From contig CM000208.1 of NCBI GenBank assembly GCA_000002445.1, forward strand, positions 3,990,026 to 4,054,025: a stretch of DNA of 64,000 bases. Direction: 5' to 3'. The translations under genes and the position numbers were made by a program. Below the pieces are notes generated by a model. That model made no database searches. It had not been told where the DNA came from and saw only the letters and a list, made by a program, of their open reading frames with translations. Positions 3,715-64,000 of the stretch are shown here, piece after piece. Every line of letters starts with the position of its first letter. Position 1 is the first letter of the stretch. The DNA comes from Trypanosoma brucei. Lineage: Eukaryota.

Positions 3715-4300
<586 letters not shown>

Positions 4301-32254: not shown

Positions 32255-32430
32255 GTCATTGTAGGAATAATGATGATGATAAGATAGTTGTGAGTGTGTA
32301 TATATACGAATTTTATGATAGGAGCAGTAATAATGATAATAATGATAATAATAATAGTGATAATAATAATAGGAGAGTGTTGTGAGTGTGTATATATACG
32401 GATATTATAATAAGAGCAATGATGGCAGAG
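32255..32430 (+). repeat. 70-bp repeats (about 2 copies)
   Basis: ggaataatgatgatgataagatagttgtgagtgtgtatatatacgaattttatgataggagcagtaataatgataat...aggagagtgttgtgagtgtgtatatatacggatattataataagagc. Confidence 0.85.
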
Positions 32431-34875: not shown

Positions 34876-35119
34876 TTGCTGCTGTCTTTATGAGTTTTGT
34901 ATGCTTTTATAATTCAAGCGTTTTGCGTATTTTTGCTCAATTTTGTGGAATTTATGAAGTTTGATATACTTTAACGCTTTTGTAAAGCTTTTGAAAAATA
35001 TGAAATTTTTAAAATATTGTGGCTTATGAGTATAAAGTAGTAGAGTGATATGGTATGAAAGATGGGTAAAATTCTAAATTTTTCATATTTTGTTTATTGT
35101 AGGGATGTTGCTTAAGGTC

Positions 35120-35200
35120 ATTGTAGGAATAATGATGATGATAAGATAGTTGTGAGTGTGTATATATACGAATAATATAATAAGAGCAATGATGGTGTAT
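35120..35200 (+). repeat. 70-bp repeat
   Basis: ggaataatgatgatgataagatagttgtgagtgtgtatatatacgaataatataataagagcaatgatgg. Confidence 0.8.
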
Positions 35201-35945
35201 AATAACTACAAACCTAAGAGAAAGGCACTTAAAACAGTGGCAAAGTGAAATGGGAGTACATAATGGAGTCAAATAGAATACAAGAAATATTATTATTTAA
35301 AAGTTGCAGAAACGGAAAGTAAAGATGATAGAATGTGGTCATGTTAAAACATATACGGGACTATTGCATCATGATATCGACAGACTTGATGAAGGGTACA
35401 ATTAAGGAAAGAGTGAGTCCAGTATAGAATTATAATGCAGGCGCTACTTAATCATTAGTAATATAAGCATAAGAAAAGAGGAAGAAACATAATATGGAAT
35501 GAGACAATGCAATTAGCAAAAGCACAACGCAGAAAGAAAATTGTACAGGGGGAGATTGTGCTCCACATTTCACACACAAATGGATAGATGCAATTTCGGA
35601 AATGGTGGAGGCAGTGGTGTTCAACTTTATTGTGCAGTAACATGTCAAACATTAAACTCAGGTAGCTGAAAATGATGGCCTGCACATGGGTGTTTTCCAT
35701 AAAAGCAGAAAATCAGGAGCTCTAGAGTCCATTTGTTACCTGATTGTGAGTGTTTAGTTAGAGTGCTTCAAACGAATGTAAATTTTAATTTGAGGTGTAA
35801 AGAATACCGTGCCAGAGGAAATGGCAAATCACAAACAAAAAACATCAAAATGACTTACTTGGTTAACCATAATGAACTCAACTTTAACTGTCACTTTGGT
35901 AAGTGGACCTAAATCAAAGTCAATTACCAGGTTCATCAGCGGATT

Positions 35946-43760: not shown

Positions 43761-44700
43761 TTAAACCAACTTCAAGGATGCAATGGAAGCAACTTAGAGA
43801 AAGAGAGAGTAAAAGTATGCAGAATATTATTAAGGGAAACACAGAAAGACAAAAAGAGAGAGAGAAAGAGAGAGAACATGTATAGTCAAAAAAATAAATG
43901 ACAATGAGGAAAATCATACAAAAGATAATGTAGAAAACAATAAAGTAGGCACAACTGTAGTGTAGAGACCATATGGAGTCGCTAATTCATATGTAGAAGA
44001 ATAAACAGAAGCAGAAAAGAAAAGGCAAAGAAGAAAAAAGACGGAAGGAAAAAACAGAATAGAAAACATAACGGCACAGAAGAAAACGATACAGTAGGAT
44101 ATGATGCTCTATGTTTCACACAAACAATGGACAGATCTTACTGTAGATATGATGGGAGCGACTGTGATTCTTAATGTGATAACGGAGGATAGTCTAAAGA
44201 GATACCTACTGAAAATGATGAGTCATAGAGTTTTCAGGCTTCATATGGACAAGAATGGAAGAGATTAAAAAAGCATTGAAAATAAAAGAAAATGTGTTTA
44301 TACGGGATAATGTTTGAAAGTGTTAACAAGTAGCCGAGAGATCATTTCGAGACGAGTAAGAGTTACAACCTAGTAATATTGAGCGGTTTCTTAGAGATGG
44401 GCAGCCAAGCACCAACAAACGTGTGGAAAAACCTTCTTTTCTTATAACCAGGCAAACCGGCCTCAGCCATCTAGACCAATCTCAGACCAAGTGGACATCC
44501 ACCATAAGAAAAAAAAACAAGGTCTACAAACGTTTTCCTATAACCAAAATTGGTCACACACGTACCTGTGACTGAATATAACAGAAATCTTAGAAAGTTT
44601 TTAAAAATTACAATCGTTTCCGCTACAGCTGCAAGCAACAATAAGACTTTGAATATCCACACGATATCAGCAGGGAAACAGGAAGACTGTACCAGAAAAT

Positions 44701-45740
44701 ATGGTGACATTCACTTCAGTGATGCTGTTAGTCATAGTTTTACAATTCGGATTCAGCGCCCCAGCAGCCGACAAGGACGCAGAAGTGTTCCATGCATTCT
44801 GCAGCATCTTGCAGTTAGGCGACACAACGCAGCCAATCCAGCCACCACTGGAGCCGGAACCTTCAGACCCCGAAGAACTGTTCAAATTGAACATGAAGCT
44901 AGCACAACCAGCATGGGTAGCCAAATTCCTAGACAACACGAATCCAGCAACACCGCAAGCGAAAAAAAGCCAACGACGAGCCTAGACGAAACACAAGCAA
45001 AAATGTGGGACACATGGGCAAAGCACGCAGCTAACGTAGAAAAAGCCGAAGGAAACGGTAAAACTGCAGCAGACGAAATTAAAGCCAAGTATGGTACGAC
45101 CGCTTCATCGGAAGCACAGCTCCTTCATTTAGTCATGACATAGCTAAACTCGCAGACGAAGCGCACGCAATAGCCTGTCACAGCGATTCTGGAATCAAAC
45201 GAACGGACGTCAGTGACGCTTCAATCTTAGCAGCCCTACAGAAGCGACAGATATACAATGTAGAAACAAAAGCAAAGAAAGCTACGCTAAACAAGTTGTT
45301 GCAGGAAGCGGAGACGATAGCACGGCGGGCACAATACGACCCGGCATATCCGAAGCCAGCAACCCAAGAAGCGGGCACCAAAGTCATGAAAAACGCAGGG
45401 TCAAAAGATTGCACAACGATAGCAAAGTCAGAGGAATGCAAACCTGAAGTGGGATGAAAATATAATGAAACAACTAGCAAATGCGAAAAAGATCCAAAAA
45501 GTCCAGTTGTACAAGCCACAGGATCAGAATGGGTAGGTATAGTCGTAGATTGCGGTAAAAACCAAACTCAAAAAGCTTTTGAGGTAGAAAACAATAATGT
45601 AAAAGCAGGTGCCAAAATGGTTTGTGGTGGGATAACTTACGTGAACAGTACAGAAAAACTTTCCAAACCTGAGTGCCGCTCCTCCAGCTTCCTCGTAAGT
45701 AAAAAACTTTGCTCTGATTGTTCCCGCTTTCGTGAGTTTG
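44701..45740 (+). pseudogene. VSG: VSG pseudogene (frameshifted); an ingi-type element sits in its 3' flank
   Basis: Signal peptide MVTFTSVMLLVIVLQFGFSAPAADKDAE. Later frames carry C-terminal-domain motifs (…CTTIAKSEECKPEVG-KYNETTSKCEKDPKSP…CGKNQTQ…) and a GPI-signal remnant CRSSSFLVSKKL. A VSG-type 3' UTR (aattttatgaaaattatgaaacat) follows and runs directly into the retroelement. Confidence 0.7.
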
Positions 45741-45785
45741 GTAGAGTTTCAGCATTAAAAGGATATTTCCCAATTTTATGAAAAT

Positions 45786-48700
45786 TATGAAACATCACTG
45801 GTGAAACCGGCCACCTCATCATGGGACCCAGTGCCTAGTACTTCATCCAGGAGGAAGCTAAGTGCTCGCATTAAACCAGGCCCGACAGGATTGTGGTGGG
45901 CAAAAAGCTTTCGGTGACCAGAGAATGAGAAAGCAGCGGTATAGGCATCTGCGGTGAAGAAATACATTAGACTAATCTTCTGCACGTGCAAGTGTGCCTA
46001 TATTGGGATCCATAGGCTTATATTACTTCTTATAGTAGATTTGGAACGGAATTCCTGTCCTGTCCTTTGTGGAGCCCAGTGGAATTCTGTGGATTTCTCC
46101 AGGGCAAAGTGGAACGCCTTAGAGAAGAAACTCCACGAGTATATGGTAGTCTTCTGTCTATTGCGGGAGATTCACTTGGCAGTAGAAGAATACTGCGCAT
46201 TGAAAATTAGTAGATACCAACACATGGTGTCACATTCTCCGCATGGTGGTAAGGTATTAATTCTAGTGAGAGAACGCGTGAAAATCATCTAAGGTCCGAA
46301 GGAGGAAGCACTGCCGGAAAGAGTCTTGGAAAGCTAATGTTTTCATCTGATCTAATGTTAACTATAAAATCAGCTTACTTCACACGAAAGAAAATGTCAT
46401 TACCTCCACGGTTGAGTGCCTTGAAAGCTCAACAGTATCAGCGGTGATAGGATTTGATACAAACGCACATCACGAGTTATGGGACCCACTTCGCCCAAAT
46501 GGTACAGCAGGAGAATGCATTATAGGCTGATGTCTACGAAATGATATCAAAATTTCAAATGATGGCACCCCAACGAGAAGAATGACTCACACTGCAACCA
46601 TGTCGTCTCCAGATGTTACGATGTACAGAGACTGCGAATTCACAAGATGGAAGGCAAGCATCAGTCCGGATATTGACCACTACTGGATAACGTTTGAGGT
46701 ATGTATTGGGATTGATGTAGAAATGATCGCCATCACTAAGTCACGAAGTACGTTGCATGTTTTTAACGAAGCAAATTGGCAGGAGTTTCGAAAAGTGTAT
46801 GATGCCACAAAGGTGAAAAATTAAGGAATCGAAAAAGAAAGTGGATGCCATGAATGAGGCAGTGACTAAAGTCATTCGCACAGCAGCAAAGAAAACGATA
46901 ACGAAATGTAAGTGAGTATTGCTACAGTTCCGGACACAAGAACTGGCCGAAATGGACATAAAAATAAGAGAATGTACAAATGAAAAGCACAGAGATATTC
47001 TTATACACAAGAGAAGGAAGGTTTTTGCCGAAAATTCCCTACAGCGATGGAAGGAAAATGCGTTGAAGATGTCAGTGATTGACACAAAAAGTTGGAGTGT
47101 AGTCATGTCGGTGTATGCACTAAGGTCACTGTCATCTCCGGTTATGGTAGTGAATGACCACCCCCTAACACGCAGACAGCAAGCCAATAAGCTAGCATAG
47201 ACGTATTGAGAGAGCGGTTGACAAGAGCACTAGATGCTCCTCCCATGAGTACACCATATCGAGTGAGCGTAGAATTCGCACCAATAACGATTTAAGAACA
47301 TGAGACAGCACCAAAAGACCTCTATTCAGGCACTGCCACCGGTAAAGACAATACACATTGTGAACTGTTGAATTAATCAGGACGCCGTAGCAAGAAATGT
47401 GTCATACAGTTCTTCAACTGCGCCCTACAGGGACACAAGGTGCCGAAGAAGTGGAATCAGGAAGTTATCGTCTAACTGCTCAAACACGACAAACCGGTCA
47501 AGTGTATATCATCGTTTCGGCACATCACGGTCACTAGCATGCACTGTAAGTTCATGGACAGGATTGTAGAGAGACGCATACAGGACACAGTAGAATGTAA
47601 GCTACAAATACAGTAAGCTGGTTTTCGTCCAGAGAGGTCTACGTTAGAGGCCCTGATGGCACTCACAGACTTCGTGACACATAGAATAGCAGGAGAGACA
47701 GCCGCAGCGGTATTCATATATTATGTGGGGGCATTTGACTCTGTAGAGCACAGGTATATAATAGAATCACTAAAAAAATATGAGGTAGACATGCACCTCA
47801 TTACATGTGTTGCAAATTTCCTGGATGGATGGACTGCAGTAGCAAGAATAAACAACACCCTTTCAAATAAAATACAATTCACATGTGGTGTTCCGCAAGG
47901 GTCTGTATTGGGGCCGTTACTATTCATTATCTCAATGCACTCCTTTAGCGCGAAATTGAATGCCATACCAGTCCTTAAACACTGCTTCTTCGCAGAAGAC
48001 CTCACAATAGTATGCTCTTACACTGACCGGAAAGCTATTAGGAAGACACTACAAACAGGATGAGATTGCATAGCAAGCTGCTCGACAGAGCATTAAATAG
48101 AGGTGTCCGCCGATAAAACGGAGTACACGTTCTTCAAGGTTAGAAAGACAGAGACTCATTACATCTAATGATGTGAGAACACAGATTAAATGAGACGAGA
48201 AATCCCATAATCCTTGGGGTGACGATGCAGCCACACAGTGGTGTAAGAAAACATGCTCACAACATACAAACAGCAGCAAATACAAAATTAATGAAACTAC
48301 GGGCCGTTGCATTACCTGAATGAAGGGTGAGCAAAGAAAGCTTCCGAGCATTTTACGTAGCCTAATCCAGATAAAGTTATGTTATGGGATAGCTGCGTGG
48401 TGGTTAAATGCTTCTTCATCTATCAAGAAGAAGCTTGAACGAGTACAAACGCAGGCTTCACATGTTGTCGCGGGTATTTCAAAGTGCGCGAATCGGCATG
48501 ATGTTATGAAGGAGTCTCACCTTCACACGATAGATGATATTGATCATAGACGAACAATAGAATACTGTTGAACAAGGAAGGTGAACGGTAAGGCATCAGC
48601 CGATACAGTGGGGAAAATGTTCCCACCCAGTCATCCAATACACACGCACCTGCAAAGCGTATCACACTTGTATGAGGAAGTAGACAGACCGGAAAAGTCA

Positions 48701-51100
48701 CACACGGCAAGCGTATTGCAACCGATGAAGATATCGTACTTCAATACCATAACATCAGGTGGTCTCCATTATGACTCTTCAGACAGCGAAAAGAAAAGAC
48801 ACACAATGCAAATGGTATGTAGATTCAGAGACTACGATTATCAAGTGTAGACGGATGGGTCGGTAATACTGTACGAATCCTCTGGCACCACCGTAATAAT
48901 ATACCCTAGACAAGGTAATGCAGTAAGGGTGAAGAAGGGAACAAGCAGGTTATCGTGCAGCTACAGAGCCGAGTGTGCAGCTATGGATGCAGGAATTATA
49001 AAACTTAAGACAACAATAAAGATCAATGAGAGCAGAAAAATGAAAGTGTAAATATTCACAGAATCGTTGCCCTTATTAATGGAGCTCAAAACAGGTCCTG
49101 CAGCAGTGACTGATTTTATTCTACGACGCATATGGGATCTGATCATACACTTCATGAAACTGAGAGTAGCCATGTCGTTTCAGCTTGTGTTTTGGCATTG
49201 CGGTATGCAGAGAAATGACAAAGTAGACACGCTCACAAACAAAGGAAACCACGTGCCGCAACCCTACCCTGCACGGATTACCCACATTGTCACGGGTATA
49301 ACACGCCAATTACTTAATCAGGAACAATGCGAATTTGCGGAAGGCTGAGGCCCAAACACACACCACAGTGCGTTACTAAGCTATATAAAAACGACCCAAA
49401 AATAAAGCAGCTAGGAAGGGAAGATGAGTCACCTTTAGCTCAATTTAAACGAGGGACTTAAAAACATTTTTGGTAGTTACATAGGGTGATCACATGAAAG
49501 ATTAAAGAAGTGGAGTGTAGATGGTATAAAAATCACCATGGGAAATTTTTTTAATAATTCCCCTGCCCCACTCAAAACACTGTAAAGATAGAAGAAACTG
49601 AGGAAGGCAAGATGGTATTAGCTACAAGACAGAATAACTAGATCATATGCACAGTGTGCAATATCGTGTGTGCGAGAAGACAAGCAGGGGCTGTTCACAT
49701 GATGAAAATACATCAGTGTGTTCGTGAAAATGCACTAGCTGTATTAACGATTGCTCCAAGAGCAGAACAGGTATATGATGGTGTCTATCGATGTCACGTA
49801 TGCGGTAAAGTATTCGACAGAAAGTAGCTACTGCAAGAACAAATCCCACAACACCCTCCAACAGATCAATTAGTATGTACAGAGCAGCAAAAGAGGAAAC
49901 GGGAAGAAGAAAAACAGTCGTTACCAACTGTTCACAAGTTTCAGTGGTGCCCAAAGCAGTATGGCAGGCATGGCTGGTTTTCTAGACATATACATCTGAC
50001 ACGTCCTGAAAAGCAAACCGATTTGACAAAACAAACGGAAATACAGGATGTGAGCAGGGAAGATGAACAAGCGCAAGCACTACAAGCATATGAACGTCTC
50101 AACTGCAAACAGGTGTATAGAAACAAAACCTGGTTCACCAGACATAAGTGCATACCGGAGCTGAGTGAACGGGAACCAAGCGCACCACTACAATAAATAC
50201 TGTTGGAGAGAGAAACATGTAAGATATGCAGTAAAGAATACCACCACAGCTGGATGTTGAGCCATATGACTGCAAAACATCCCGGGAACGACATTTCACT
50301 CAGACCACAGCCGATAAAGATAAGAAAAGTGAAGAAGGAGATATCAAAGTTTCAAACAAAGAAGAACACCGGTGGTGAAAACAAAAATAATGATGACAAT
50401 AATACACCACGTTATGTTTGTGACAAATGTAATAGGGTTTTCAAAAGCAGGCATGGCTAACACACCACAAGTGCGTGATCATCGAGAACGCGGACCTAAA
50501 AATGGGAGAAAGTGAACAATCCCCATGGATAAGCTACACATCTAGAAACCACTACCAAAAATGGATTGAATCCCGGCACCATGGATAGAGCGCTTCTCAA
50601 CTCAGACTTGTTACACACAACAAAACTTGAGCTCCACGACAAGAAAGAGAGAAAGAGGAACCGAGCATGACACGTCAGCAGATGAAATGAATATATGCGA
50701 TCAGAAAGAGGAGCCGAAAAACAAACGGCATAAGGATCAATGGCACACAGATAACCCCGTAGAGAGTTTGCATGTGGAAGGCGTAAGAACACCTACATGT
50801 CATGGTGTACACCAGTTTGGCATACCAACACACACCACAAAAGTGCAATCACTTTAAAGAGGGAGTGTGAAAAAGGACCCCTTTAAATCACACCGCTAGC
50901 CCCTCTCAGCCACCAATGCCCACTCTGCTCGAAGGTATGTTCACACAAGCAATATCTAACAATGCATGTCCAAGCAGAAAATGCGGAGACACGTAGCTTT
51001 TATAGGCGAAATGAGCTAAAAGAGATATGTAAAGAAACATCGATTCACCTGTTACAGTGTCCGGCTTTGAGTAAACTCAGGTATTAGCATGTAGTAGACA
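45786..51100 (+). mobile_element. Degenerate ingi-type (ingi/RIME/DIRE family) non-LTR retrotransposon; 3' boundary uncertain
   Basis: AP-endonuclease-like ORFs 45954-46292 (...FCLLREIHL...GGKVLILVRE) and 46582-46824. Reverse transcriptase motifs in 47656-48063 (AFDSVEHRYIIESL; GVPQGSVLGPLLF; FFAEDLTIV, the YxDD-box position). RNase H-like motif HCGMQRNDKVDTLTNKG in 49067-49348. C2H2 zinc finger (CKICSKEYHHSWMLSHMTAKH; YVCDKCNRVFKSRHG) in 50203-50460. All are + strand in different frames with many stops, so the element is degenerate. Confidence 0.75.
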
Positions 51101-51479
51101 GTCTGATAGGGGAAGATATATACTTCAGTGTTAAGCTGGTAAACTTCTTAAATGCACTCTTCTTTTCGCCAGAAAATTGGACTCCCACAATAGACACTAA
51201 AAAAATTGATAAACAGACCGCAAATAAAAAGAGAAATGTCGCCATCATGCTAAATATCCACTGACCACATACGATACATTCGGATGAGCACCAGTGGGAT
51301 TTATTTAAAATGATGGAAGGCAATATCCAAATGGGGGATTCCCAAAAAATAAAACTTTATCCAAGCCCTGCAGAAGGGAGTGAATGACAAATTGTGAAGA
51401 TTATAAACATATCATCGAAAAAAGTAGCTGAAATGGAAGCGTATATTGATATATTGAGGTGTGTGCAGGTTAATGAACA

Positions 51480-51850: not shown

Positions 51851-53122
51851 CGACGAAGATAAAACAGAAGGGAAAATACAAGCACTTAAAACAATGGCAG
51901 GGTGCAATAGGAGGAAGTTAGTCAGTTGTAGATAGCGTGAGGAATAGTAACATCTCTAAAGGAGTGAAAGAAAGAAATGAAGATAGTATATGCACGGTTT
52001 TAAATACAACCATGCAGGTAGATATCGTAACACGCAAGAAAGGAATGAAGGCAACAATAAGAAAAAAGAGTCCAGTGTGCAGTGCACATACAAAATCGAA
52101 TCTGTACATTATATTCGTAAAGACTGTCAAGGCGAAAAAATGTAAATAAAATGTACAATGAAACAGCTGTACGCGATGCAGCGTAGAACAGAAAAAATTA
52201 TATATCAGGAAGAGAAGACGCCAATAAATTGCTGAATATTAATGAAAAAATAAATGAAACAACTGCTATAGTAGCAACTGTGCATTTTTACCTTATAGTG
52301 GATCCCAAATTTAAGAATTTAACTCACGTGGTGGTTCTCTTTTATAAAATGAATGCGAGGCTTTTGGTTGGAAAAATGAGGAGTTGTAGGGGAACTGTTA
52401 AAGATGAGGAATGAATATGGTTTGGTACATTATACCTGCAGGTAGCTCGAAGTCAGGGTTTTTAAAAGCCCTTACTTGTCAAAAGTTGGTTCTACAGAAA
52501 AAACAATCAAATATTATAAAAAGTGCAACAGTAACCCCAGAAATAGCAAGTAAGGCATATACGCCAAGTATCAAAAAACACAAGCAATCCATGAAATTCA
52601 ACTAACTGCAAGATTAGCATAAGCAGTATTACAGGAGATACAATAAAAACCGAAAATAGAAATGACACTAAATTCCAAGATAGTGCAGTTTAGTAAGTGA
52701 CGGATGACAGAAGCAGCTAAATTAGTGGCTAAACTCGTACGAAGACAAACAGCAACTGGAAAAGATATTCCTGTGGTGTGATGGCCTGCATGTGTGGGAA
52801 ATCAAATAAGTTTAACATAGAATAAATAGAGGAGATAAGTTCAATAGAAGAGAAAGTTTCTTCCTTAATTAGACGAATAAATTTTAAATATAACAACAAA
52901 ATTTAAAAAGTCGGAAGAAATTGAAATCAGAACAAAAGAGTTTTACCCCTGAAAAAAACACCGACACCTCTAAAAAGCCAAACAGAAGCAGAATTACTCG
53001 TCAATGCTATTAATGTGAATAGAAAAGAATTAAGAGACACTTTTCCTGTTTTTAAAAACAAAAAGAAGGACGTAGAGAGAGTTCAGCACTCGGTGGAAGC
53101 TGGATTATTACACTCAGACAAA

Positions 53123-54360
53123 ATGCCAGCAAAAAAGTTTGCGGTAATTCTCGTCTGCTGCTACCTCACAGACCAAACGGCGTCTGAAACGACGGAGGAC
53201 ATTGCAAACGCCACCGCGACGACACCTTGTACACTGAGTGCATACTACAGAGCTATAGAAACCAAACTAACTAACTGCATAAACGATGCGGCAGCCGCTC
53301 CTCAAAAATTAAACACGAAGCGGGCGCCGAAGCCCTAATGAAAATTCTAACACAAAGCGGCGGGGGAAACAACGTGGGCTGCAAAGTAACGACGACGTCG
53401 ACGTTAACCACTGAGACCTAATTAGAAAGGGGAAGAAATGGAAGTAATAAAGGCCCAAAAGATAGGAGAAAGTCTCAAAACAATCACAAAACTGACGATC
53501 TACAAAAAGGAAAGCCTCAAGATGCCGGACCTAAGCGCGATAATCGAGGCCCAGGCACCATAGCAGGCGACACCAACTAGAAAGCAGGGAACGGCGACAT
53601 GCAATTCCAAAAATCCATGGCAGTGGAAGCAGTGGCCCAAGCCCAGAACACGGTAGCAGTCTAGCAGATAAAACTAACAGCAAAGGTGGAGGCAACAATC
53701 GAAACATTAGCTGATATCATCCAGGCAGAGCCACAAGAACAAAACAGGGGTCACAGCGAAAAACTGCCGCCACAGACGCCGCCAAAAACCCACCGGTAGT
53801 ACTGATGGACGAACAGCTAGAAACGATAGCAGTGGATTCAGAAGCAACAGCTACGCACACCTTCATGCAGAAGCCTACGGGTGCTGGCCTCAAAAAGTCC
53901 CCCTAAGCAAAAGAAGTCTCAATTTTGATTTTTGGCACTGCAACTGGCGCAGTGGACAACGTTTTTCTGTAACCCGTCAGAACGGACGCAGTTTCAGTCC
54001 CTACAGCTGGAAACGACATCAAAACGAACATAAAAGCAATTGCAGTCCAAGAAGGTTTCTAACAAGCGATGGCTTATTACTAAGCACTTAACAGGAAAAA
54101 ACAGCAGCTAATGGAGCAGGAACAAAGCCTGAAGGAGACGAAAAAACAGATACAACAGAAGAAATAGTAAAAATAAAGAGGGGGGATAATAAATCCGCAA
54201 CTGCAAATTGCACCAGCTATTCAACACAAGATGCCTGTACAAAAGGGAAGAATTACAAATGGGAAAATAACGCATTCAAGGATTCCAGTTTGCTGATCAA
54301 TAAGAAATTGGCTCTGATGGTTTCTGCTGCATTTGTGAGTTTTCTGCTTTTAATTTTTCA
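53123..54360 (+). pseudogene. VSG: VSG pseudogene: third, heavily decayed member of the 23173/27039 family, with a different C-terminal domain and GPI tail
   Basis: Upstream 52740-53100 matches 22790-23170 and 26660-27010 (ctggaaaagatattcctgtggtgtgatggcctgca...gacgaataaat). The N-terminus MPAKKFAVILVCCYLTDQTASETTEDIANATATTPCTLSAYYRAIETKL matches copy 2. After that there are many in-frame stops, frameshifts and an internal deletion. It ends CTKGKNYKWENNAFKDSSLLINKKLALMVSAAFVSFLLLIF. Confidence 0.85.
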
Positions 54361-54544: not shown

Positions 54545-54615
54545 TAGGGTTACAACAATAATAATAATGATGATAATTGGAGAATGTTTTGAGTGTGTTT
54601 ATACTAATATTATAA
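54545..54615 (+). repeat. 70-bp repeat (1 copy). This is the 5' boundary of the duplicated telomeric-type cassette.
   Basis: aataataataatgatgataattggagaatgttttgagtgtgtttatactaatattataacaataattg. The same junction recurs at 60980-61045. Confidence 0.85.
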
Positions 54616-55707
54616 CAATAATTGTGGTGAAAACCGAATGCGCGGAAAAATAGAGGAAGTTAAAATAAAGTTTAGAATATATAAAAATAATTGAACCTGT
54701 TGGAGAAAGAGCACAAAAATTACTATTTTAAAGAAAATTTTGATAAGAAGGGCAATTATGTGCGGTTTAAGTGCAGAAATGACAAAAGGTATTATAACAA
54801 ACAAGAAGAAGGTTGAAATATGAAAGACACAGTAAAAAGCTGTGGTGTGAAGTTTTCACGGTTTACTAAAAAATATAAGTAACAGAATCTGTAGAATAAA
54901 GTGGAAGAAAAACAAGAAACCTTAAAATAATAAGAAAATACTTTGATGGGTAATAAGTGGAAAAATTTTATATAAAGTAGGAAAAAGTTTCAATGATACA
55001 TTGCTAATTTTATACTTATATAAGGGTAATAAGGTAACACTATTTAGCGAGCAGGTGCTCCATATTAGTATTTGGTCTTGTCTTCAATTTATGAAGAGAT
55101 TTAACAAGTTACAACATTTAAGATAGGGTAAGACATTCCAAAAATTAACGATTCATAAATGGAAACAACCTGAAAGAAACAAAGTTTTGAACGAGCGATA
55201 AACAAACTAGTTTCTTTTCAAAAACCTAAGATGTTTTATTCTCACAAAAATAACATGTAACAAATCAAAATTAGCAGCGTACGAAAGTAGTTAAAATAAG
55301 TAAGGTTTGAAATTCTAAAAATAAAAAAATATGTGATACTTTAAAGATTGACAGGAGTGGATTGAGTCAGCGATAAATTCAATATATATGTATAAAAAAC
55401 ATAGAATTAATGGCATACTGTGGTTGACAAACAAAAGTGAGGCTAAATTTTTTTCATGATAACCATGAGGTTCTATAGTGAAACCCTCATTTTGACAGTT
55501 TGAACATAAAACACATACAACCATTTAGACAAATAATTCACACATCACAAAAAAAGGGTATAGTAACTTTGGGCTTTTTGAATATTATTTCAACAAAAAT
55601 ATGCGAATTATTTAACTTTACAGAACCCAGACCATCTTTAAAAGCCCAAACCCTAGTCTCAACTTTGCAGCAAACACAACGCTAAAGATCAGAGGTCTAA
55701 CTTTAAA
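54616..55707 (+). other. Upstream block (co-transposed-region-like) of VSG cassette copy A; duplicated at 61041-62139
   Basis: Minus-strand ORF 54610-54804 is identical to 61041-61235. ORF 55500-55685 is about 90% identical to 61932-62132 (MNIKHIQPFRQIIHTSQKKGIVTLGFLNIISTKICELFNFTEPRPSLKAQ…). Confidence 0.8.
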
Positions 55708-57159
55708 ATGCGTTTAGAGGTGCGACAAGCAGTTAGCAAAAGCCTGCCCGTGCACGCAATCGACTTTCTGATCGTGTTCGTGACTCTAACAATGCGTACG
55801 GATGCAGCGTTTAAAGAAGATGCGGCGGCCGACATGCACCTTCTTTGCGAGGCAATGGCGTTGGAAAACGTAGAACCAGCAGCGCCGACACTAGCTGACA
55901 ACTTCGACAATGATATTAGCGAATTGCGCATAATGAATATGTTTACAGCCGACGATAGCTGGCGAAGCAATTTCAAAGGCGACCCCAAAACGGACACATG
56001 GGAAGCCCGTAGCAAGGGCTGGTGCAACAGAGCCATTTGTATCTCATTGGCAAGGCGAATTCACCAAGTGGCAGCAGGACTACCAAACGGCGGAGGTTGC
56101 AAACAATCCGAAAACCTGACTAGCAAACAACCCACCACCGCAGGGACCGTACGCCAAAAGACTGGAGCACAGACAGATCAACGACACACTAGTGGAAGTA
56201 GCAGCCAAGATTGAGAGCTACAGGAAAAGTAAACAAAAGATAGTGCCGGACGGCGTCAAGAAAGTGAAGGAGCTTATTTCAGAGGCACTGTACGGCATTG
56301 GTCAAACAGATTACACGGAAAAGACAGGCAGCACGTACACTTCCTCTACCATTTACACGGCCGCGTGCGGCGTGAACGGCGGCAAGAGCATCGTAGGAGA
56401 TCTGCTATGTATATGTTGCCAAGCCGCATCCGGCACAACCAATGCATGCAACAACAGCGGCGTAAGCTGCAACTGGACCGGCGCAATGACAACTCACGTC
56501 ACCACCCTCAAAGCCAAATGTCCATCAAAGAAGCCGACTAAACCAACCTTAGCGACGTTAATGCAATTGTCGTACAGCTCAAGAGCGGCATCCGTAAGGG
56601 CAAAAAGTGGAACGCAATCAAATTCTACCTCAGCGGCGACCTCGCCACCTGTGACGGCGCAACAGACAAAACTTGCGTTGACTACAGCGCGCACTACGCT
56701 GCTGGCAGCAGCAAGAGTGGAGTCGACAGCATACCATGGATAGCCAAACTCAACGACGCCATCACCGCCATGGAAGAGATGGAGAAAGATGCCCAGAAAG
56801 CCAGAGAAGAAGCAAAGGAAGTACGGATGCTAATAGCCGCTGCGAAAAGAGCGTACAGGATTGCCATCGAGCCTTAAATGAAACAAAGCAACGAACCAGC
56901 CAAAAGCAGTGAAGCAGAAACAAAAATGCAGCAGCCAACCGAAACAGAAGATAGATGCAACAAAAAGGGGCAAAATGAATGCAACTCCCCATGCAAGTTG
57001 GTTGAAGAAGGTGGCACAAAGAAGTGCAAATTGGATAAGGAGGAAGTAAAAAAGATAACAGATGAGGCTGCAAAGGATGCAAAAACAAACACCACAGCCA
57101 GCAATTCTTTCGTCATTCACAAGGCCCCTCTTTTGCTTGCAGTTTTGATTATAGCATAA
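55708..57159 (+). pseudogene. VSG: VSG pseudogene (type B), a paralogue of the terminal VSG, with at least two frameshifts
   Basis: MRLEVRQAVSKSL...AFKEDAAADMHLLCEAMALENVEPAAPTLADNFDNDISELRIMNMFTADDSWRSNFKGDPKTDTWEARSKG matches the terminal VSG, then falls into the frame that the terminal gene uses only as an alternative ORF (GWCNRAICISL…). The middle ORF 56192-56743 and the C-terminal-domain ORF 56878-57159 (…CNSPCK…KCKLDKEEVKKITDEAAKDAKTNTTASNSFVIHKAPLLLAVLIIA) continue the alignment. Confidence 0.85.
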
Positions 57160-57394: not shown

Positions 57395-60335
57395 TTTGTG
57401 AATAGTAACAGTAATAGTAATAATAATAGGAGAGTATTGTGAGTGTGTGTATATACGAATATTATAGTAAGAGCAGTAATAATAATAATAATGATAATAG
57501 TAATAATAATAATAATAATAGGAGAGTATTGTGAGTGTGTATATATACGAATATTATAATAAGAGCAGTAATAATAATGATGATAATAATAATAATAGGA
57601 GAGTGTTGTGAGTGTGTGCATATACGAATATTATAATATGAGCAGTAATAATAATAATAATGATAATAGTAATGATAATAGGAGAGAGTGTTGTGAGTGT
57701 GTGTATATACAAATACTATAATAAGAGCAGTAATAATAATACTGATAATAATAATAGGAGAGTGTTGTGAGTGTGTTTATACTAATATTATAATAAGAGC
57801 AGTAATAATAATGATGATAATAATAATAATAGGAGAGTGTTGTGAGTGTGTGCATATACGAATATTATAATATGAGCAGTAATAATAATAATAATGATAA
57901 TAGTAATGATAATAGGAGAGAGTGTTGTGAGTGTGTGTATATACGAATATTATAATAAGAGCAGTAATAATAATAATAATGATGATATAATAATGATAGG
58001 AGAGAGTGTTGTGAGTGTGCGTATATACGAATATTATAATAAGAGCAGTAATAATAATAATAATGATAATAATGATAATAATAATAATAATAGGAGAGTA
58101 TTGTGAGTGTGTATATATACGAATATTATAATAAGAGCAGTAATAATAATGATGATAATAATAATAATAGGAGAGTATTGTGAGTGTGTATATACAAATA
58201 CTATAATAAGAGCAGTAATAATAATAATAATGATAATAATAATAATAATAATAATAATAGGAGAGTATTGTGAGTGTGTATATATCCGAATATTATAATA
58301 AGAGCAGTAATAATAATGATGATAATAATAATAATAGGAGAGTATTGTGAGTGTGTATATACAAATATTATAATAAGAGCAGTAAAATAATAATACTAAT
58401 GATAATAGTAATAATAATAATAATAGAAGAGTGTTGTGAGTGTGTGTATATACGAATATTATAATTAGAGCTGTATTAATAATAATGAAAATAGAAGAGT
58501 GTTGTGAGTGTGTGTATATACGAATATTGTAATAAAAGCAGTAATAACAGTAATGATAATAATAATAATGATAGGAGAGTGTGTTGTGAGTGTGTGTATA
58601 TACGAATATTATAATGAGAGCAAAAATAATAATACTAATAATGATAATAATAATGATAGGAGAGTGTGTTGTGAGTGTGTGTATATACGAATATTATAAT
58701 AAGATCAGTAATAATGATAGTAATAATGATAATAATAATGATAATAATAATAGGAGAGTGTTGTGGCTGTGTATATACGAATATTATAATGAGAGCAAAA
58801 ATAATAATACTAATAATGATAATAATAATGATAGGAGAGTGTGTTGTGAGTGTGTGTATATACGAATATTATAATAAGAGCAGTAATAATAATAATAATA
58901 ATGATAGGAGAGTGTTGTGAGTGTGTGTATATACGAATATTATAATAAGAGCAGTAATAATAATGATGATAATAATAATAATAGGAGAGTATTGTGAGTG
59001 TGTATATACAAATACTATAATAAGAGCAGTAATAATAATAATAATGATAATAATGATAATAATAGGAGAGTATTGTGAGTGTGTATATACAAATACTATA
59101 ATAAGAGCAGTAATAATAATAATAATGATAATAATAATAATAATAATAATAATAGGAGAGTATTGTGAGTGTGTATATATACGAATATTATAATAAGAGC
59201 AGTAATAATAATGATGATAATAATAATAATAGGAGAGTATTGTGAGTGTGTATATCCAAATATTATAATAAGAGCAGTAAAATAATAATACTAATGATAA
59301 TAGTAATAATAATAATAATAGAAGAGTGTTGTGAGTGTGTGTATATACGAATATTATAATTAGAGCTGTATTAATAATAATGAAAATAGAAGAGTGTTGT
59401 GAGTGTGTGTATATACGAATATTGTAATAAAAGCAGTAATAACAGTAATGATAATAATAATAATGATAGGAGAGTGTGTTGTGAGTGTGTGTATATACGA
59501 ATATTATAATGAGAGCAAAAATAATAATACTAATAATGATAATAATAATGATAGGAGAGTGTGTTGTGAGTGTGTGTATATACGAATATTATAATAAGAT
59601 CAGTAATAATGATAGTAATAATGATAATAATAATGATAATAATAATAGGAGAGTGTTGTGAGTGTGTGTATATACGAATATTATAATAAGAGCAGTAATA
59701 ATAATGATGATAATAATAATAATAGGAGAGTATTGTGAGTGTGTATATACAAATATTATAATAAGAGCTGTATTAATAATAATGAAAATAGAAGAGTGTT
59801 GTGAGTGTGTGTATATACGAATATTATAATTAGAGCAGTAATAATAATGATGATAATAATAATAATAGGAGAGTATTGTGAGTGTGTATATACAAATACT
59901 ATAATAAGAGCAGTAATAATAATAATAATGATAATAATAATAATAATAATAATAATAGGAGAGTATTGTGAGTGTGTGTATATACGAATATTATAATAAG
60001 AGCAGTAATAATAATAATAATGATAATAGTAATAATAATAATAATAATAGGAGAGTATTGTGAGTGTGTATATATACGAATATTATAATAAGAGCAGTAA
60101 TAATAATGATGATAATAATAATAATAGGAGAGTATTGTGAGTGTGTATATACAAATACTATAATAAGAGCAGTAATAATAATAATAATGATAATAATGAT
60201 AATAATAGGAGAGTATTGTGAGTGTGTATATACAAATACTATAATAAGAGCAGTAATAATAATAATAATGATAATAATGATAATGATAGGAGAGTGTTGT
60301 GAGTGTGTATATACGAATATTATAATAAGAACAGT

Positions 60336-60370
<35 letters not shown>

Positions 60371-60424
60371 TAATAGGAGAGTGTTGGGAGTGTGTGTATA
60401 TACAAATATTATAATAAGAGCAGT

Positions 60425-60465
<41 letters not shown>

Positions 60466-61040
60466 TAGGAGAGTGTTGGGAGTGTGTGTATATACAAATA
60501 CTATAATAAGAGCAGTAATAATAATGATGATAATAATAATAGAAGAGTGTTGTGAGTGTGTTTATACTAATATTATAATAAGAGCAGTAATAATAATGAT
60601 GATAATAATAATAATAGGAGAGTGTTGTGAGTGTGTGCATATACGAATATTATAATATGAGCAGTAATAATAATAATAATGATAATAGTAATGATAATAG
60701 GAGAGAGTGTTGTGAGTGTGTGTATATACAAATACTATAATAAGAGCAGTAATAATAATACTGATAATAATAATAGGAGAGTGTTGTGAGTGTGTTTATA
60801 CTAATATTATAATAAGAGCAGTAATAATAATGATGATAATAATAATAATAGGAGAGTGTTGTGAGTGTGTGCATATACGAATATTATAATATGAGCAGTA
60901 ATAATAATAATAATGATAATAGTAATGATAATAGGAGAGAGTGTTGTGAGTGTGTGTATATACGAATATTATAATAAGAGCAGTAATAATAATACTGATA
61001 ATAATAATAGGAGAGTGTTGTGAGTGTGTTTATACTAATA
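57395..61040 (+). repeat. 3.6-kb array of 70-bp repeats (about 50 units) with higher-order duplicated blocks
   Basis: Continuous reiteration of (TAA/TGA)n + AGGAGAGTGTTGTGAGTGTGTATATACGAATATTATAATAAGAGCAGTAATAATAAT. Exact block repeats show in the ORF track: 57631-57855 = 60650-60874; 58107-58298 = 59805-59996; 58508-58699 = 59403-59594. Confidence 0.95.
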
Positions 61041-62139
61041 TTATAACAATAATTGTGGTGAAAACCGAATGCGCGGAAAAATAGAGGAAGTTAAAATAAA
61101 GTTTAGAATATATAAAAATAATTGAACCTGTTGGAGAAAGAGCACAAAAATTACTATTTTAAAGAAAATTTTGATAAGAAGGGCAATTATGTGCGGTTTA
61201 AGTGCAGAAATGACAAAAGGTATTATAACAAACAAGAAGAAGGTTGAAATATGAAAGACACAGTAAAAAGCTGTGGTGTGAAGTTTTCACGGTTTACTAA
61301 AAAATATAAGTAACAGAATCTGTAGAATAAAGTGGAAGAAAAACAAGAAACCTTAAAATAATAAGAAAATACTTTGATGGGTAATAAGTGGAAAAATTTT
61401 ATATAAAGTAGGAAAAGTTTCAATGATACATTGCTAATTTTATACTTATATAAGGGTAATAAGGTAACACTATTTAGCGAGCAGGTGCTCCATATTAGTA
61501 TTTGGTCTTGTCTTCAATTTATGAAGAGATTTAACAAGTTACAACATTTAAGATAGGGTAAGACATTCCAAAAATTAACGATTCATAAATGGAAACAACC
61601 TGAAAGAAACAAAGTTTTGAACGAGCGATAAACAAACTAGTTTCTTTTCAAAAACCTAAGATGTTTTATTCTCACAAAAATAACATATAACAAATCAAAA
61701 TTAGCAGCGTACGAAAGTAGTTAAAATAAGTAATGTTTAAAATTCCAAAAATAAAAAAATATGTGACACTTTAAAGATTGACAGGAGTGGATTGAGTCAG
61801 CGATAAATTCAATAGATATGTATGAAAGAAGCTTGGGATTAAAGACGCAGAGCTTTTAAAAAACAAAATTTATGCTAAATTTTTGTCATTATAACCATGA
61901 GGTTCTATAGTGAAACCCTCATTTTGACAGTTTGAACATAAAACACATACAACCATTTAGACAAATAATTCACACATCACAAAAAAAGGGTATAGTAACT
62001 TTGGGCTTTTTGAATATTATTTCAACAAAAATATGCGAATTATTTAACTTTACAGAACCCAGACCATCTTTAAAAGCCCAAAGCCTAATCTCAACTTTAA
62101 ACCAAGCACAACGACGAATATCAGAGGTCTAACTTTAAA
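61041..62139 (+). other. Co-transposed-region-like upstream block of the terminal VSG (copy B of 54616-55707)
   Basis: See 54616-55707. It lies between the 70-bp array and the VSG start, as in expression-site-type cassettes. Confidence 0.8.
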
Positions 62140-63591
62140 ATGCGTTTAGAGGTGCGTCAAACACTTAAGCCAAATGTGACAAAACGCGCACTCGCAACTC
62201 TGACCGTACTCACGACGGCCGCACTGCGGGCCGAAGCTGCGTTCAAAGCGGACGCAGCCGCCGACATGCACCTTCTTTGCGCAGCAATGGCAATCGAAAA
62301 AGTAGAACCAGCAGCGCCGACACTAGCTGACAACTTCGACAATGATATTAGCGAATTGCGCAGAATGAATATGTCGACAGCCGACGACAGCTGGCGAAGC
62401 AATTTCAAAGGCGACCCCAAAACGGACACATGGGAAAGCCGCAGCAAGGCTGGTGCAACAGAGCCATTTGTATCTCATTGGAAAGCCGACTTCGGCAAGT
62501 GGCAGCAAGACTACCAAACGGCGGAGGTCGCAAACAAGCCGAAAACCTGGCTAGCAGACAACCCACAACCGCAGGGAACATACGCCAAAAAAGTAGCGCA
62601 CAAACTAATAAACGATACCCTAACTGAACTGATAACCAAGATCGCGGACTACGCACAAACCAAACACAAGATAGCCCAAGCAGGTGCAACGAAGGTGAAA
62701 GAGCTAATCTCAGAAGCACTATACGGCGCCGGCCAGACAAGCTTCGAACCGAAAAGCGACGCTACGTACAAGTACTCCAGCAACTACGGCACCGCCTGCG
62801 GCGGCAACGGAGGCATGAGCATCGCAGGCGACTTACTCTGCATATGCTGCCAAGCCACAACCGGCACTACCAATGCGTGCGACAATAGCGGTATACAATG
62901 CGACTGGTCATCAAACAACATGAACAATCACATCGCCACAGTAAGAAAGAAGTGCCCCACAAGCAAGCCATCTAAGCTAACCTTAGCAGGACTCATACAG
63001 CTAGCAGCTCAACTAAAAGCCGGCATCAGGAAGGGAGCCAAAGGCACCGCAGTCGCCTTCTACCTCGGCGGAAGCCACGACACCTGCGACGGCACCACCG
63101 ACCAAACTTGCGTTGACTACACCGCACATTACGGCGCTGGCGGCACCAAAAGCGGAGTCAACAGCATACCATGGATAGTCAAGCTCAACGACGCCATCGA
63201 AACCATGGAAGAGATGGAGAAAAATGCCCAGAAGGCCAGAGAAGAAGCAAAGGAAATCCGGATGCTAATAGCCGCTGCGAAAAGAGCGTACAGGACCGCA
63301 ATCGAGCCTTCAATGAAACAAAGCAACGAACCAGCCAAAAGCAGTGAAGGCCAGACGAAGATGCAGCAGCCCAGCGAAACAGAAGATAGCTGCAACAAAA
63401 AGGGGCAAAATGAATGCAACTCTCCATGCAAATGGAATCCCGAAGCAGAGGGGAAAAAATGCAAATTGGACAAGGAGGAAGTAAAAAAGATAGCAGATGA
63501 GGTTGCAAAGGATGCAAAAACAAACACCACAGGAAGCAATTCGTTTGTCATTAGCAAGGGCCCTCTTTTGCTTGCATTTTTGCTTTTTTAA
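62140..63591 (+). CDS. VSG: Intact telomere-adjacent VSG (type B N-terminal domain), 483 aa
   Basis: Uninterrupted ORF with signal peptide MRLEVRQTLKPNVTKRALATLTVLTTAALRAEA, Cys pattern GTACGGNGG…LLCICCQATTG…CDNSGIQC, C-terminal domain CNKKGQNECNSPCKWNPEAEGKKCKLDKEE, and GPI signal GSNSFVISKGPLLLAFLLF. A perfect 16-mer TGATATATTTTAACAC lies at 63643-63658, and the telomere repeats begin about 130 bp after it. Confidence 0.95.
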   Translation: MRLEVRQTLKPNVTKRALATLTVLTTAALRAEAAFKADAAADMHLLCAAMAIEKVEPAAPTLADNFDNDISELRRMNMSTADDSWRSNFKGDPKTDTWESRSKAGATEPFVSHWKADFGKWQQDYQTAEVANKPKTWLADNPQPQGTYAKKVAHKLINDTLTELITKIADYAQTKHKIAQAGATKVKELISEALYGAGQTSFEPKSDATYKYSSNYGTACGGNGGMSIAGDLLCICCQATTGTTNACDNSGIQCDWSSNNMNNHIATVRKKCPTSKPSKLTLAGLIQLAAQLKAGIRKGAKGTAVAFYLGGSHDTCDGTTDQTCVDYTAHYGAGGTKSGVNSIPWIVKLNDAIETMEEMEKNAQKAREEAKEIRMLIAAAKRAYRTAIEPSMKQSNEPAKSSEGQTKMQQPSETEDSCNKKGQNECNSPCKWNPEAEGKKCKLDKEEVKKIADEVAKDAKTNTTGSNSFVISKGPLLLAFLLF

Positions 63592-63642
63592 GTTTTTCCC
63601 CTCTTTTTCTTGCTAAATTTTCTTGCTACTTGAAAAAGTTTC

Positions 63643-63658
63643 TGATATATTTTAACAC
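63643..63658 (+). promoter_or_regulatory. Conserved VSG 3' UTR 16-mer, the known mRNA stability element of VSG transcripts
   Basis: Exact TGATATATTTTAACAC 52 nt after the stop codon of the terminal VSG. The same exact 16-mer occurs at 20181-20196. Degenerate versions follow most other VSGs, for example 37547-37562. Confidence 0.85.
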
Positions 63659-63789
63659 CTAAAAATTTACCCGAAAAAAATTGAGCTGTTTTTTTGTAAG
63701 TTGTAAACTCTCTGATTGTCTAGAAATTTTTTCTGACAACTAAAATTTTTTCCTTTTCCTGTTTTTTTTGAGAAAGTGGGGGGGGTAGT

Positions 63790-64000
63790 TAGGTAGGTTA
63801 GGGTTAGGGTTAGGGTTAGGGTTAGGGTTAGGGTTAGGGTTAGGGTTAGGGTTAGGGTTAGGGTTAGGGTTAGGGTTAGGGTTAGGGTTAGGGTTAGGGT
63901 TAGGGTTAGGGTTAGGGTTAGGGTTAGGGTTAGGGTTAGGGTTAGGGTTAGGGTTAGGGTTAGGGTTAGGGTTAGGGTTAGGGTTAGGGTTAGGGTTAGG
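63790..64000 (+). repeat. Telomere: about 34 TTAGGG repeats, with the G-rich strand running 5' to 3' to the end of the window (a chromosome right end)
   Basis: gggggggtagttaggtaggttagggttagggttaggg..., then perfect hexamers to position 64000. Confidence 0.97.

What the first reader, a model, noticed from the sequence alone, without database searches (positions are those of the whole stretch)
62140..64000. Intact VSG about 200 bp from the telomere with an expression-site-like cassette but no ESAGs
The terminal gene shows the full layout of an expression-site-type VSG cassette, an expression-competent or recently expressed telomeric VSG: a 3.6-kb 70-bp repeat array, a ~1.1-kb upstream block, an uninterrupted 483-aa VSG, a perfect 16-mer 52 nt after the stop, and TTAGGG repeats 130 bp later. 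What lies upstream of the 70-bp array is unusual. There is no ESAG1, 2, 3 or 11 in 57 kb, only a VSG pseudogene array and an ingi-type element. The end is therefore not a canonical bloodstream expression site. The long 70-bp array is atypical for a metacyclic expression site. The absence of 177-bp repeats argues against a minichromosome. It may be a silent telomeric VSG at the end of a subtelomeric array, or a novel or minimal expression-site type.
Basis: partly seen in the sequence, partly recalled or inferred. Interest (0 to 1): 0.6.

Follow-up and report, generated by a model that had tools for sequence, protein, structure and literature searches.

The report
Silent telomeric VSG gene, chromosome 10
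This is the last gene before the telomere of chromosome 10 in the Trypanosoma brucei TREU927 reference genome: an intact surface-coat (VSG) gene that shows no expression-site promoter or accessory genes and most likely serves as a silent, easily copied donor for antigenic switching, which is an ordinary, already recognised arrangement.

Summary
The window ends with 45 copies of the 70-bp repeat (57412-61040), a 1.1-kb upstream block, an uninterrupted 483-aa class-B VSG (62140-63591), a perfect 16-mer 52 nt after the stop, and TTAGGG repeats about 207 bp after the stop. The VSG is 100% identical to EAN78982.1/XP_828094.1 (Q387P0) of T. brucei brucei TREU927, on a 4,054,025-bp contig I take to be chromosome 10, so it is an annotated reference gene. 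I found no ESAG-type protein family, no 50-bp or 177-bp repeat array, and no site matching eight primers that span about 700 bp of the conserved bloodstream expression-site promoter region. The "ES-like cassette" is a tandem paralogue of the neighbouring array cassette: the 1.1-kb block is 96% identical (99-100% over 700 bp) to the block upstream of the VSG pseudogene at 55708-57150, which has a single 70-bp repeat. Identity along the two cassettes is patchy, as segmental gene conversion produces. A deposited T. brucei VSG (AGQ50253.1) is a mosaic whose first 142 residues (bar two) and last 110 (bar one) match this gene. Best reading: a promoterless silent telomeric VSG donor at the end of a subtelomeric array. 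A metacyclic-type promoter could not be properly excluded. Low interest.

The parts
54555..54625 (+). Single 70-bp repeat heading the neighbouring array cassette.
   Evidence: Core motif at 54586-54603; sequence read. Homologous to the last repeat of the long array at 61000-61060.
54609..55707 (+). Upstream block, copy 1 (5' flank of the VSG pseudogene).
   Evidence: 96.4% identical over 1100 nt to 61040-62139. Identity is 99-100% over 54579-55279 versus 61010-61709.
55708..57150 (+). VSG pseudogene (class B, frameshifted), paralogue of the terminal VSG.
   Evidence: 79% nucleotide identity to 62140-63591. VSG_B hits on two separate frames. Identity is patchy, 56-96% per 100 columns.
57412..61040 (+). 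70-bp repeat array of 45 copies, with higher-order units of 234 bp and 895 bp.
61040..62139 (+). Upstream block, copy 2 (the position of a co-transposed region). AT-rich, with no long ORF.
   Evidence: Differs from copy 1 by only one 1-nt indel, so nothing is inserted that is unique to the telomeric copy.
62140..63591 (+). Intact 483-aa class-B VSG gene, identical to EAN78982.1 / XP_828094.1 / Q387P0 of TREU927.
   Evidence: Its AlphaFold model is placed in class B in PMC10501684.
63643..63658 (+). Perfect VSG 3'UTR 16-mer, TGATATATTTTAACAC.
   Evidence: The only other perfect copy in the window is at 20182-20197.
63786..64000 (+). Telomere: a short degenerate junction, then perfect TTAGGG repeats to the window end.
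45900..51100 (+). Context: a degenerate ingi-like non-LTR retroelement of about 5.2 kb, lying 11 kb upstream of the terminal VSG.
   Evidence: RVT_1 at 47617-48060 (E=1.2e-16); Exo_endo_phos_2 and zf-C2H2 hits. Part of the GC-rich block 44526-51103.

Best explanation
This is a transcriptionally silent, promoterless VSG gene adjacent to the telomere.

It is built like any array cassette: 70-bp repeat, 5' flank, VSG, then a 3' flank with the 16-mer. It arose by tandem duplication and gene conversion with the cassette next to it. It differs only in that its 70-bp tract has expanded to 45 copies and a telomere follows it.

Inferred mechanism: the gene is not expressed in place. It acts as a high-probability donor. 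After a break in the active bloodstream expression site, recombination begins in the long 70-bp tract upstream. It resolves either in the conserved 3' end/3'UTR or runs on to the telomere. The result is that the intact gene, or segments of it, is copied into the active site. Telomere exchange is an alternative route.

Shown here: the anatomy, the paralogy, the absence of BES hallmarks, and the identity to the reference gene. Inferred: silence in situ, and donor use.
For: 1. Identity. The VSG is 100% identical over its full length to EAN78982.1/XP_828094.1 of TREU927, on a 4,054,025-bp contig.

2. No BES features.
- No ESAG-type Pfam family in six-frame fragments of the whole window.
- Every block with GC above 0.40 is VSG-sized and is VSG, except the pseudogene-plus-retroelement block at 44.5-51.1 kb.
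- No tandem array of period about 50 or about 177.
- None of 8 primer sites covering the BES promoter core and the -150, -200 and -600 regions, nor the ESAG6/7 sites, matches with 3 or fewer mismatches, and there are no paired hits (primers from PMC8034637 Table S3; scan).

3. Array-cassette nature.
- The 1.1-kb block is 96.4% identical to the block upstream of the internal pseudogene at 55708-57150, with a single 1-nt indel, and that pseudogene has one 70-bp repeat.
- All VSGs in the window point the same way, towards the telomere.
- Tandem duplication is common elsewhere in the array.

4. Conversion. Identity between the two cassettes is patchy. It is 99-100% in the flank, 73-74% at the start of the CDS, 96% shortly after, 56-68% in mid-CDS, and 84-93% near the C-terminus.

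5. Donor use. AGQ50253.1 (P0002), a deposited T. brucei VSG, matches this gene at 140 of residues 1-142 and at 109 of the last 110. Its middle comes from another family member. Its accession probably falls within the expressed-VSG set of Hall et al. 2013 from TREU927 infections (KC434459-KC434954). I could not verify this.

6. Field knowledge.
- Many VSGs lie immediately adjacent to telomeres of megabase, intermediate and mini chromosomes, and telomeric VSGs predominate as silent donors because of flanking homology (PMC3963442).
- Activation frequency tracks the length of the 70-bp tract (PMC10374056).
Against: - A 45-copy 70-bp tract is the length typical of bloodstream expression sites. Archival, minichromosomal and metacyclic-site VSGs usually have short tracts.
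- Metacyclic promoters diverge between sites. I could test only the primer sites of one Lister 427 metacyclic promoter (MES653), so a Pol I promoter in the 1.1-kb block or further upstream is not excluded.
- No transcript, ChIP or read-level data could be examined. Silence in situ and the physical linkage across the repeat array are therefore inferred, not shown.
- The origin of AGQ50253.1 as cDNA from TREU927 is probable but unverified.
Confidence: 0.8

Rival explanations
1. It is a metacyclic-type or otherwise minimal expression site. A Pol I promoter that I could not recognise lies in the 1.1-kb block or just upstream of the 70-bp tract, and drives monocistronic transcription of this VSG in some life-cycle stage.
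For: - The gene is telomeric and intact, has no ESAGs, and carries a perfect 16-mer.
- An ingi-like element lies upstream. From my own recollection, not checked here, such elements are often seen near metacyclic sites.
- Metacyclic promoters diverge, so the MES653 primer test is weak.
- The nearest Lister 427 relatives are named VSG 3073 and VSG 393; VSG 3073 is 69% identical and VSG 393 is in the same 90%-identity cluster. A 'VSG-393 (KC612418.1)' is reported as the most abundant metacyclic VSG transcript in AnTat1.1 (PMC8509897). I did not verify that these are the same gene.
Against: - Metacyclic promoters normally sit 1-2 kb from the VSG, with short 70-bp tracts (PMC8034637; PMC10374056).
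- Here the first 1.1 kb is a block also found, 96% identical and with no extra insertion, in front of an internal pseudogene. The next 3.6 kb is pure 70-bp repeat.
- No MES653 or BES promoter primer site matches.
Confidence: 0.07
2. It is the distal remnant of a former bloodstream expression site. A crossover within 70-bp repeats, between an array cassette and an expression site, moved a long 70-bp tract, a VSG and a telomere onto the end of the array and left the promoter and ESAGs elsewhere. This is a statement about history. The present function would still be that of a silent donor.
For: The 45-copy tract is of BES length. 70-bp repeats are the usual recombination substrate.
Against: The flank and the VSG downstream of the tract are paralogous to the cassette immediately upstream of it, 99-100% over 700 bp of flank. 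That is more simply explained by local tandem duplication followed by repeat expansion. The tract has internal higher-order duplications of 234 bp and 895 bp, which fit in-place expansion.
Confidence: 0.08
3. The junction is an assembly artefact. An array contig ending in 70-bp repeats was joined wrongly to a telomeric clone beginning in 70-bp repeats, or the tract length is mis-assembled.
For: A 3.6-kb tract of near-identical repeats is hard to assemble. The near-identical 1.1-kb blocks could also mislead an assembler.
Against: The two cassettes are each other's closest relatives in the window, as expected for true neighbours in an array that evolves by tandem duplication. The telomere junction has the usual degenerate transition, and the G-strand is correctly oriented. 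Read data were not available to test this.
Confidence: 0.05

Closest known systems
Distal end of a bloodstream VSG expression site (BES): 70-bp repeats, co-transposed region, VSG, telomere.
   Same: A long 70-bp tract (45 copies), a flank of about 1 kb, a single intact VSG with a perfect 16-mer, and a telomere about 200 bp downstream.
   Different: No BES promoter region, no ESAGs and no 50-bp repeats in 57 kb upstream. What lies upstream is a VSG (pseudo)gene array. The flank is shared with an internal array pseudogene.
Subtelomeric array VSG cassette (70-bp repeat, 5' flank, VSG ORF, 3' flank), as defined for TREU927 arrays (PMC3607257).
   Same: The same parts in the same order and orientation as the other roughly 16 cassettes in the window. 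It is a tandem paralogue of its neighbour.
   Different: 45 rather than 1-3 copies of the 70-bp repeat. It is followed by a telomere rather than another cassette. It is one of only two genes in the window with a fully canonical ORF and GPI tail.
Minichromosomal silent telomeric VSGs.
   Same: Promoterless, telomere-adjacent, intact donors preceded by 70-bp repeats. They are expected to be activated early by duplicative conversion.
   Different: No 177-bp repeat core. It sits at the end of a VSG array of at least 57 kb on a 4-Mb chromosome. Its 70-bp tract is longer than is typical.
Metacyclic VSG expression site (MES).
   Same: Telomeric, with a single VSG and no ESAGs.
   Different: MES have a Pol I promoter 1-2 kb upstream and short 70-bp tracts. 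No promoter was detected here (a weak test), and the tract is 3.6 kb.

Membership tests
Bloodstream expression site (BES) | Conserved Pol I BES promoter upstream of the unit. | tested here: not met
   8 primer sites spanning the promoter core and the -150, -200 and -600 regions (PMC8034637 Table S3) have best matches of 4-8 mismatches, with no paired sites. A promoter outside the window cannot be excluded, but the 57 kb upstream is not BES-like.
Bloodstream expression site (BES) | ESAGs between the promoter and the 70-bp repeats. | tested here: not met
   No ESAG1, adenylate cyclase, LRR, BT1 or other ESAG-type Pfam family in six-frame fragments. ESAG6/7 primer sites are absent. All GC-rich blocks are accounted for by VSGs and one retroelement. 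I do not know whether ESAG2, ESAG3 and ESAG11 have Pfam models of their own, so for these the only evidence is the absence of unexplained coding-like blocks.
Bloodstream expression site (BES) | Long 70-bp repeat tract, a single telomeric VSG with the 16-mer, then the telomere. | tested here: met
Bloodstream expression site (BES) | 50-bp repeat array upstream of the promoter. | tested here: not met
   No tandem array of period about 50 in the window. One could lie outside the window.
Metacyclic expression site (MES) | Pol I metacyclic promoter within a few kb upstream of the VSG. | tested here: inconclusive
   Only the Lister 427 MES653 core and -250 primer sites could be tested, and they are absent. 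MES promoters diverge between sites, and the consensus sequences were not obtainable here.
Metacyclic expression site (MES) | Short or absent 70-bp tract. | tested here: not met
   45 copies over 3.6 kb.
Metacyclic expression site (MES) | Transcribed in metacyclic forms. | not testable with these tools
   No transcriptome data were accessible.
Minichromosomal telomeric VSG | 177-bp repeat core and a small chromosome. | tested here: not met
   No array of period 177. There is at least 57 kb of VSG array upstream, and the gene lies on a 4,054,025-bp contig.
Subtelomeric array VSG cassette | 70-bp repeat(s), 5' flank, VSG ORF and a 3' flank with the 16-mer, in the same orientation as the neighbours. 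| tested here: met
   Paralogous to the adjacent cassette.
VSG, class B N-terminal domain | VSG_B domain, plus an N-terminal signal sequence, a C-terminal domain with 4 Cys, and a hydrophobic GPI signal. | tested here: met
   PF13206 at E=5.7e-73. N- and C-termini read. The Q387P0 model is grouped in class B in PMC10501684.

The most novel reading that the evidence does not exclude
The locus is a functional expression site without ESAGs, of a type not yet described. A Pol I promoter unlike the BES promoter or the MES653 promoter, the only ones I could test, would lie in the duplicated 1.1-kb flank or upstream of the 70-bp tract. It would be combined with a BES-length 70-bp array at the end of a VSG array on a megabase chromosome.
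Probability: 0.05. Interest if true: 0.7.

Novelty: already known. Interest (0 to 1): 0.2.

Why it matters
If the ordinary reading is right, the locus matters only as a clean, fully sequenced example of a silent telomeric VSG at a megabase-chromosome end in the reference strain. It has a long 70-bp tract and a canonical gene, so it should be among the earliest-activated donors in TREU927 infections. It also shows, within one 9-kb stretch, how array cassettes duplicate, exchange segments and expand their 70-bp repeats. It does not open a new question. Only a functional promoter here would, by adding a new kind of expression site.

Tried and rejected
- Exact look-up of the VSG, and of P0001, in the contig index, to fetch the surrounding public record. 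Neither is on record, so the chromosome assignment rests on the contig length and names.
- Attempts to obtain BES and MES promoter sequences. Ginger 2002, Kolev 2017, Kolev 2012 and Marcello & Barry 2007 are not held. Only ChIP primer sequences were obtained. These gave a good test for the BES promoter but a weak one for MES.
- A fuzzy-regex scan for whole 70-bp units timed out. It was replaced by an 18-nt core motif search.
- Two PF19013 (DUF5742) hits were followed up in case they marked an ESAG. They are antisense frames of VSG C-terminal domains and fall below the curated cut-off.
- I considered that the middle of AGQ50253.1 came from the neighbouring pseudogene. Rejected: only 53% identity there.
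- I tried to identify the gene's Tb10/Tb927 locus tag and match it to a donor in Hall 2013 Table S1. This was not resolvable.
- I searched for papers describing this chromosome end. None was found, and the cap on papers was then reached.
- The sigma-70 promoter/terminator scan was not used, because it is irrelevant to trypanosome Pol I.

Full report
**What is there**

The last 6.6 kb of the window reads, on the + strand, as follows.
- A 3.6-kb tract of 70-bp repeats at about 57412-61040. There are 45 copies of the core motif between 57436 and 61034, against 0.17 expected by chance for the whole window.
- An AT-rich 1.1-kb block at 61040-62139.
- An uninterrupted 483-codon ORF at 62140-63591. 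It matches Pfam VSG_B at E=5.7e-73 and ends in a canonical hydrophobic tail...SNSFVISKGPLLLAFLLF.
- The perfect 3'UTR 16-mer TGATATATTTTAACAC at 63643-63658, starting 52 nt after the stop.
- A short degenerate junction from about 63786, then perfect TTAGGG repeats to the window end (34.2 copies by Tandem Repeats Finder). The G-rich strand points outward.

**Where it comes from**

The VSG is 100% identical over its full length to EAN78982.1 / XP_828094.1 / UniProt Q387P0. This protein is annotated "variant surface glycoprotein (VSG), putative" in Trypanosoma brucei brucei TREU927 and lies on a 4,054,025-bp contig. From the contig size, and because a neighbouring accession (XP_827503.1) is assigned to chromosome 10, I take this to be the end of chromosome 10 of the reference genome. 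This is an inference, because the contig itself could not be fetched. The protein has already been used in a structural classification of VSGs, as class B (PMC10501684). The locus is therefore public and annotated.

**What lies upstream**

- The window holds about 17 VSG-sized blocks with GC above 0.40, all on the + strand. All are VSG by Pfam or by translation.
- Most are frameshifted or truncated.
- The gene at 27039-28532 is intact with a canonical tail.
- The genes at 30415-32013 and 33337-34875 are uninterrupted but end in an atypical ...SSIKNLL.
- Each array cassette has at most three copies of the 70-bp motif.
- The block at 44.5-51.1 kb is a VSG pseudogene followed by a degenerate non-LTR retroelement of about 5.2 kb on the + strand, with RVT_1, an endonuclease domain and a C2H2 zinc finger.
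- Scanning 262 six-frame fragments against Pfam gave only VSG and retroelement families, plus a few weak sub-threshold hits to unrelated families. No ESAG1, adenylate cyclase, LRR, BT1 or similar family appeared.
- Two sub-threshold DUF5742 hits are antisense frames of VSG C-terminal domains.
- There is no tandem array of period about 50 or about 177.

**Promoter test**

I could not obtain promoter sequences directly. I did find published ChIP primers for the conserved BES promoter core, for the regions about 150, 200 and 600 bp upstream of it, for ESAG6/7, for one Lister 427 metacyclic promoter (MES653), and for the rDNA promoter (PMC8034637 Table S3). None of the 16 primer sites occurs in the window with 3 or fewer mismatches. 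The best hits (4-8 mismatches) are scattered and unpaired.

BES promoters are highly conserved, so this is a fair test that no BES promoter region is present. For metacyclic promoters, which differ from site to site, it is weak.

**The key new observation**

- The 1.1-kb block is not specific to this telomere. It is 96.4% identical, with a single 1-nt indel, to 54609-55707.
- That stretch is the flank of the VSG pseudogene at 55708-57150.
- The pseudogene is itself the closest relative of the terminal VSG in the window (79% nucleotide identity) and is preceded by a single 70-bp repeat.
- The terminal "expression-site-like cassette" is therefore a tandem paralogue of the ordinary array cassette next to it.
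- Identity along the pair is patchy. It is 99-100% for 700 bp of flank, 76% in one 100-bp patch, 73-74% at the start of the CDS, 96% shortly after, 56-68% in mid-CDS, and 84-93% towards the C-terminus. It is lost after the stop.
- This is the pattern left by segmental gene conversion among family members.
- Elsewhere the array also shows tandem duplication: 21306-25121 versus 25169-28988 at 95.9%.
- The 70-bp tract contains higher-order duplications of 234 bp and 895 bp. These fit in-place expansion by unequal exchange.

**Evidence of use**

The only close relative among about 5.8 billion clustered proteins is AGQ50253.1 (P0002), a T. brucei VSG. Residues 1-142 (apart from two) and the last 110 (apart from one) are identical to this gene. 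The middle resembles Lister 427 VSG 3073, which is 69% identical to this gene and clusters with VSG 393. The middle does not come from the neighbouring pseudogene, which is only 53% identical there.

The accession probably belongs to the expressed VSG cDNAs of Hall et al. 2013 from chronic TREU927 infections (KC434459-KC434954). If so, segments of this gene have been expressed as part of a mosaic. I could not verify the record or link the gene to a named donor in their Table S1.

**Interpretation**

The field already recognises that many VSGs lie immediately next to telomeres of megabase, intermediate and mini chromosomes. It also recognises that telomeric VSGs are the preferred silent donors because of their flanking homology (PMC3963442), and that activation frequency follows the length of the 70-bp tract (PMC10374056).

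The simplest account is a promoterless silent telomeric VSG at the end of a chromosome 10 array. It would be copied into the active expression site by recombination that starts in its long 70-bp tract and ends in the 3' region or at the telomere (confidence about 0.8).

The one untypical feature is the BES-length 70-bp tract outside a BES. It makes the gene an especially good donor but does not require a new kind of element.

Rivals:
- An unrecognised metacyclic-type promoter (0.07).
- A relic of a former BES distal end (0.08). This concerns history only.
- A misassembly across the repeat tract (0.05).

**Verdict**

The locus is an annotated part of the reference genome and belongs to a known kind, so interest is low (0.2).

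Noticed in passing
window 62140-63591, compared with protein P0002 (AGQ50253.1): A deposited T. brucei VSG is a mosaic. Residues 1-142 (apart from two) and the last 110 (apart from one) are identical to the terminal VSG. The middle comes from a relative of Lister 427 VSG 3073/393. It is probably an expressed mosaic from Hall et al. 2013.
   Followed up: partly
window 54557-57147 versus 60985-63582: The terminal cassette and the neighbouring pseudogene cassette are tandem paralogues with patchy identity, from 100% in the flank to 56% in mid-CDS. This is a signature of segmental gene conversion.
   Followed up: yes
window 21306-25121 versus 25169-28988; also 52755-54184: A 3.8-kb tandem duplication of a whole VSG cassette at 95.9% identity. 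One copy is frameshifted (23173-24665) and the other intact (27039-28532). A third, more diverged paralogue lies at 52.8-54.2 kb.
   Followed up: partly
window 30415-32013 and 33337-34875 (shared 3' part 31768-32342 / 34630-35205): Two adjacent uninterrupted A-type VSG ORFs share a 97.7% identical 3' end. It encodes an atypical C-terminus (...KKCAEMVVSSIKNLL) and a 16-mer with 2 mismatches. This may be a shared 3' conversion tract or frameshifted tail.
   Followed up: no
window 18585-20201: This VSG-like ORF runs through its normal end into the 3'UTR, so the only other perfect 16-mer in the window (20182-20197) lies inside the ORF. The stop codon appears lost or shifted.
   Followed up: no
window 57412-61040: The 70-bp tract has higher-order structure. 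A 234-bp three-repeat unit recurs at both ends (57532-57831 versus 60551-60850, 98%). There is also an 895-bp internal duplication (58103-58402 versus 58998-59297, 93%).
   Followed up: partly
window 3776-4249: An almost perfect (ATA)n microsatellite, 158 copies and 474 bp, directly precedes the single 70-bp core motif at 4257-4274. It looks like an expanded TAA/ATA portion of a 70-bp repeat.
   Followed up: no
window 24413-24673 (-) and 28280-28540 (-); similar antisense ORFs at 56762-57088 (-) and 63185-63523 (-): Antisense frames of VSG C-terminal domains give sub-threshold hits to Pfam DUF5742 (24.6 bits against a cut-off of 27.7). That Pfam family may be built partly on antisense translations of VSG genes.
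   Followed up: partly
proteins P0003 and P0015 (Lister 427 VSG 3073 and VSG 393): The nearest Lister 427 relatives are VSG 3073 (69% identity) and VSG 393, which shares its 90%-identity cluster. A 'VSG-393 (KC612418.1)' is reported as the most abundant metacyclic VSG transcript in AnTat1.1 salivary-gland trypanosomes (PMC8509897). I did not establish whether it is the same gene.
   Followed up: no
window 45900-51100: A degenerate ingi-like retroelement of about 5.2 kb on the + strand, inserted directly after a VSG pseudogene (44544-45800). It has many stop codons and is therefore inactive.
   Followed up: partly
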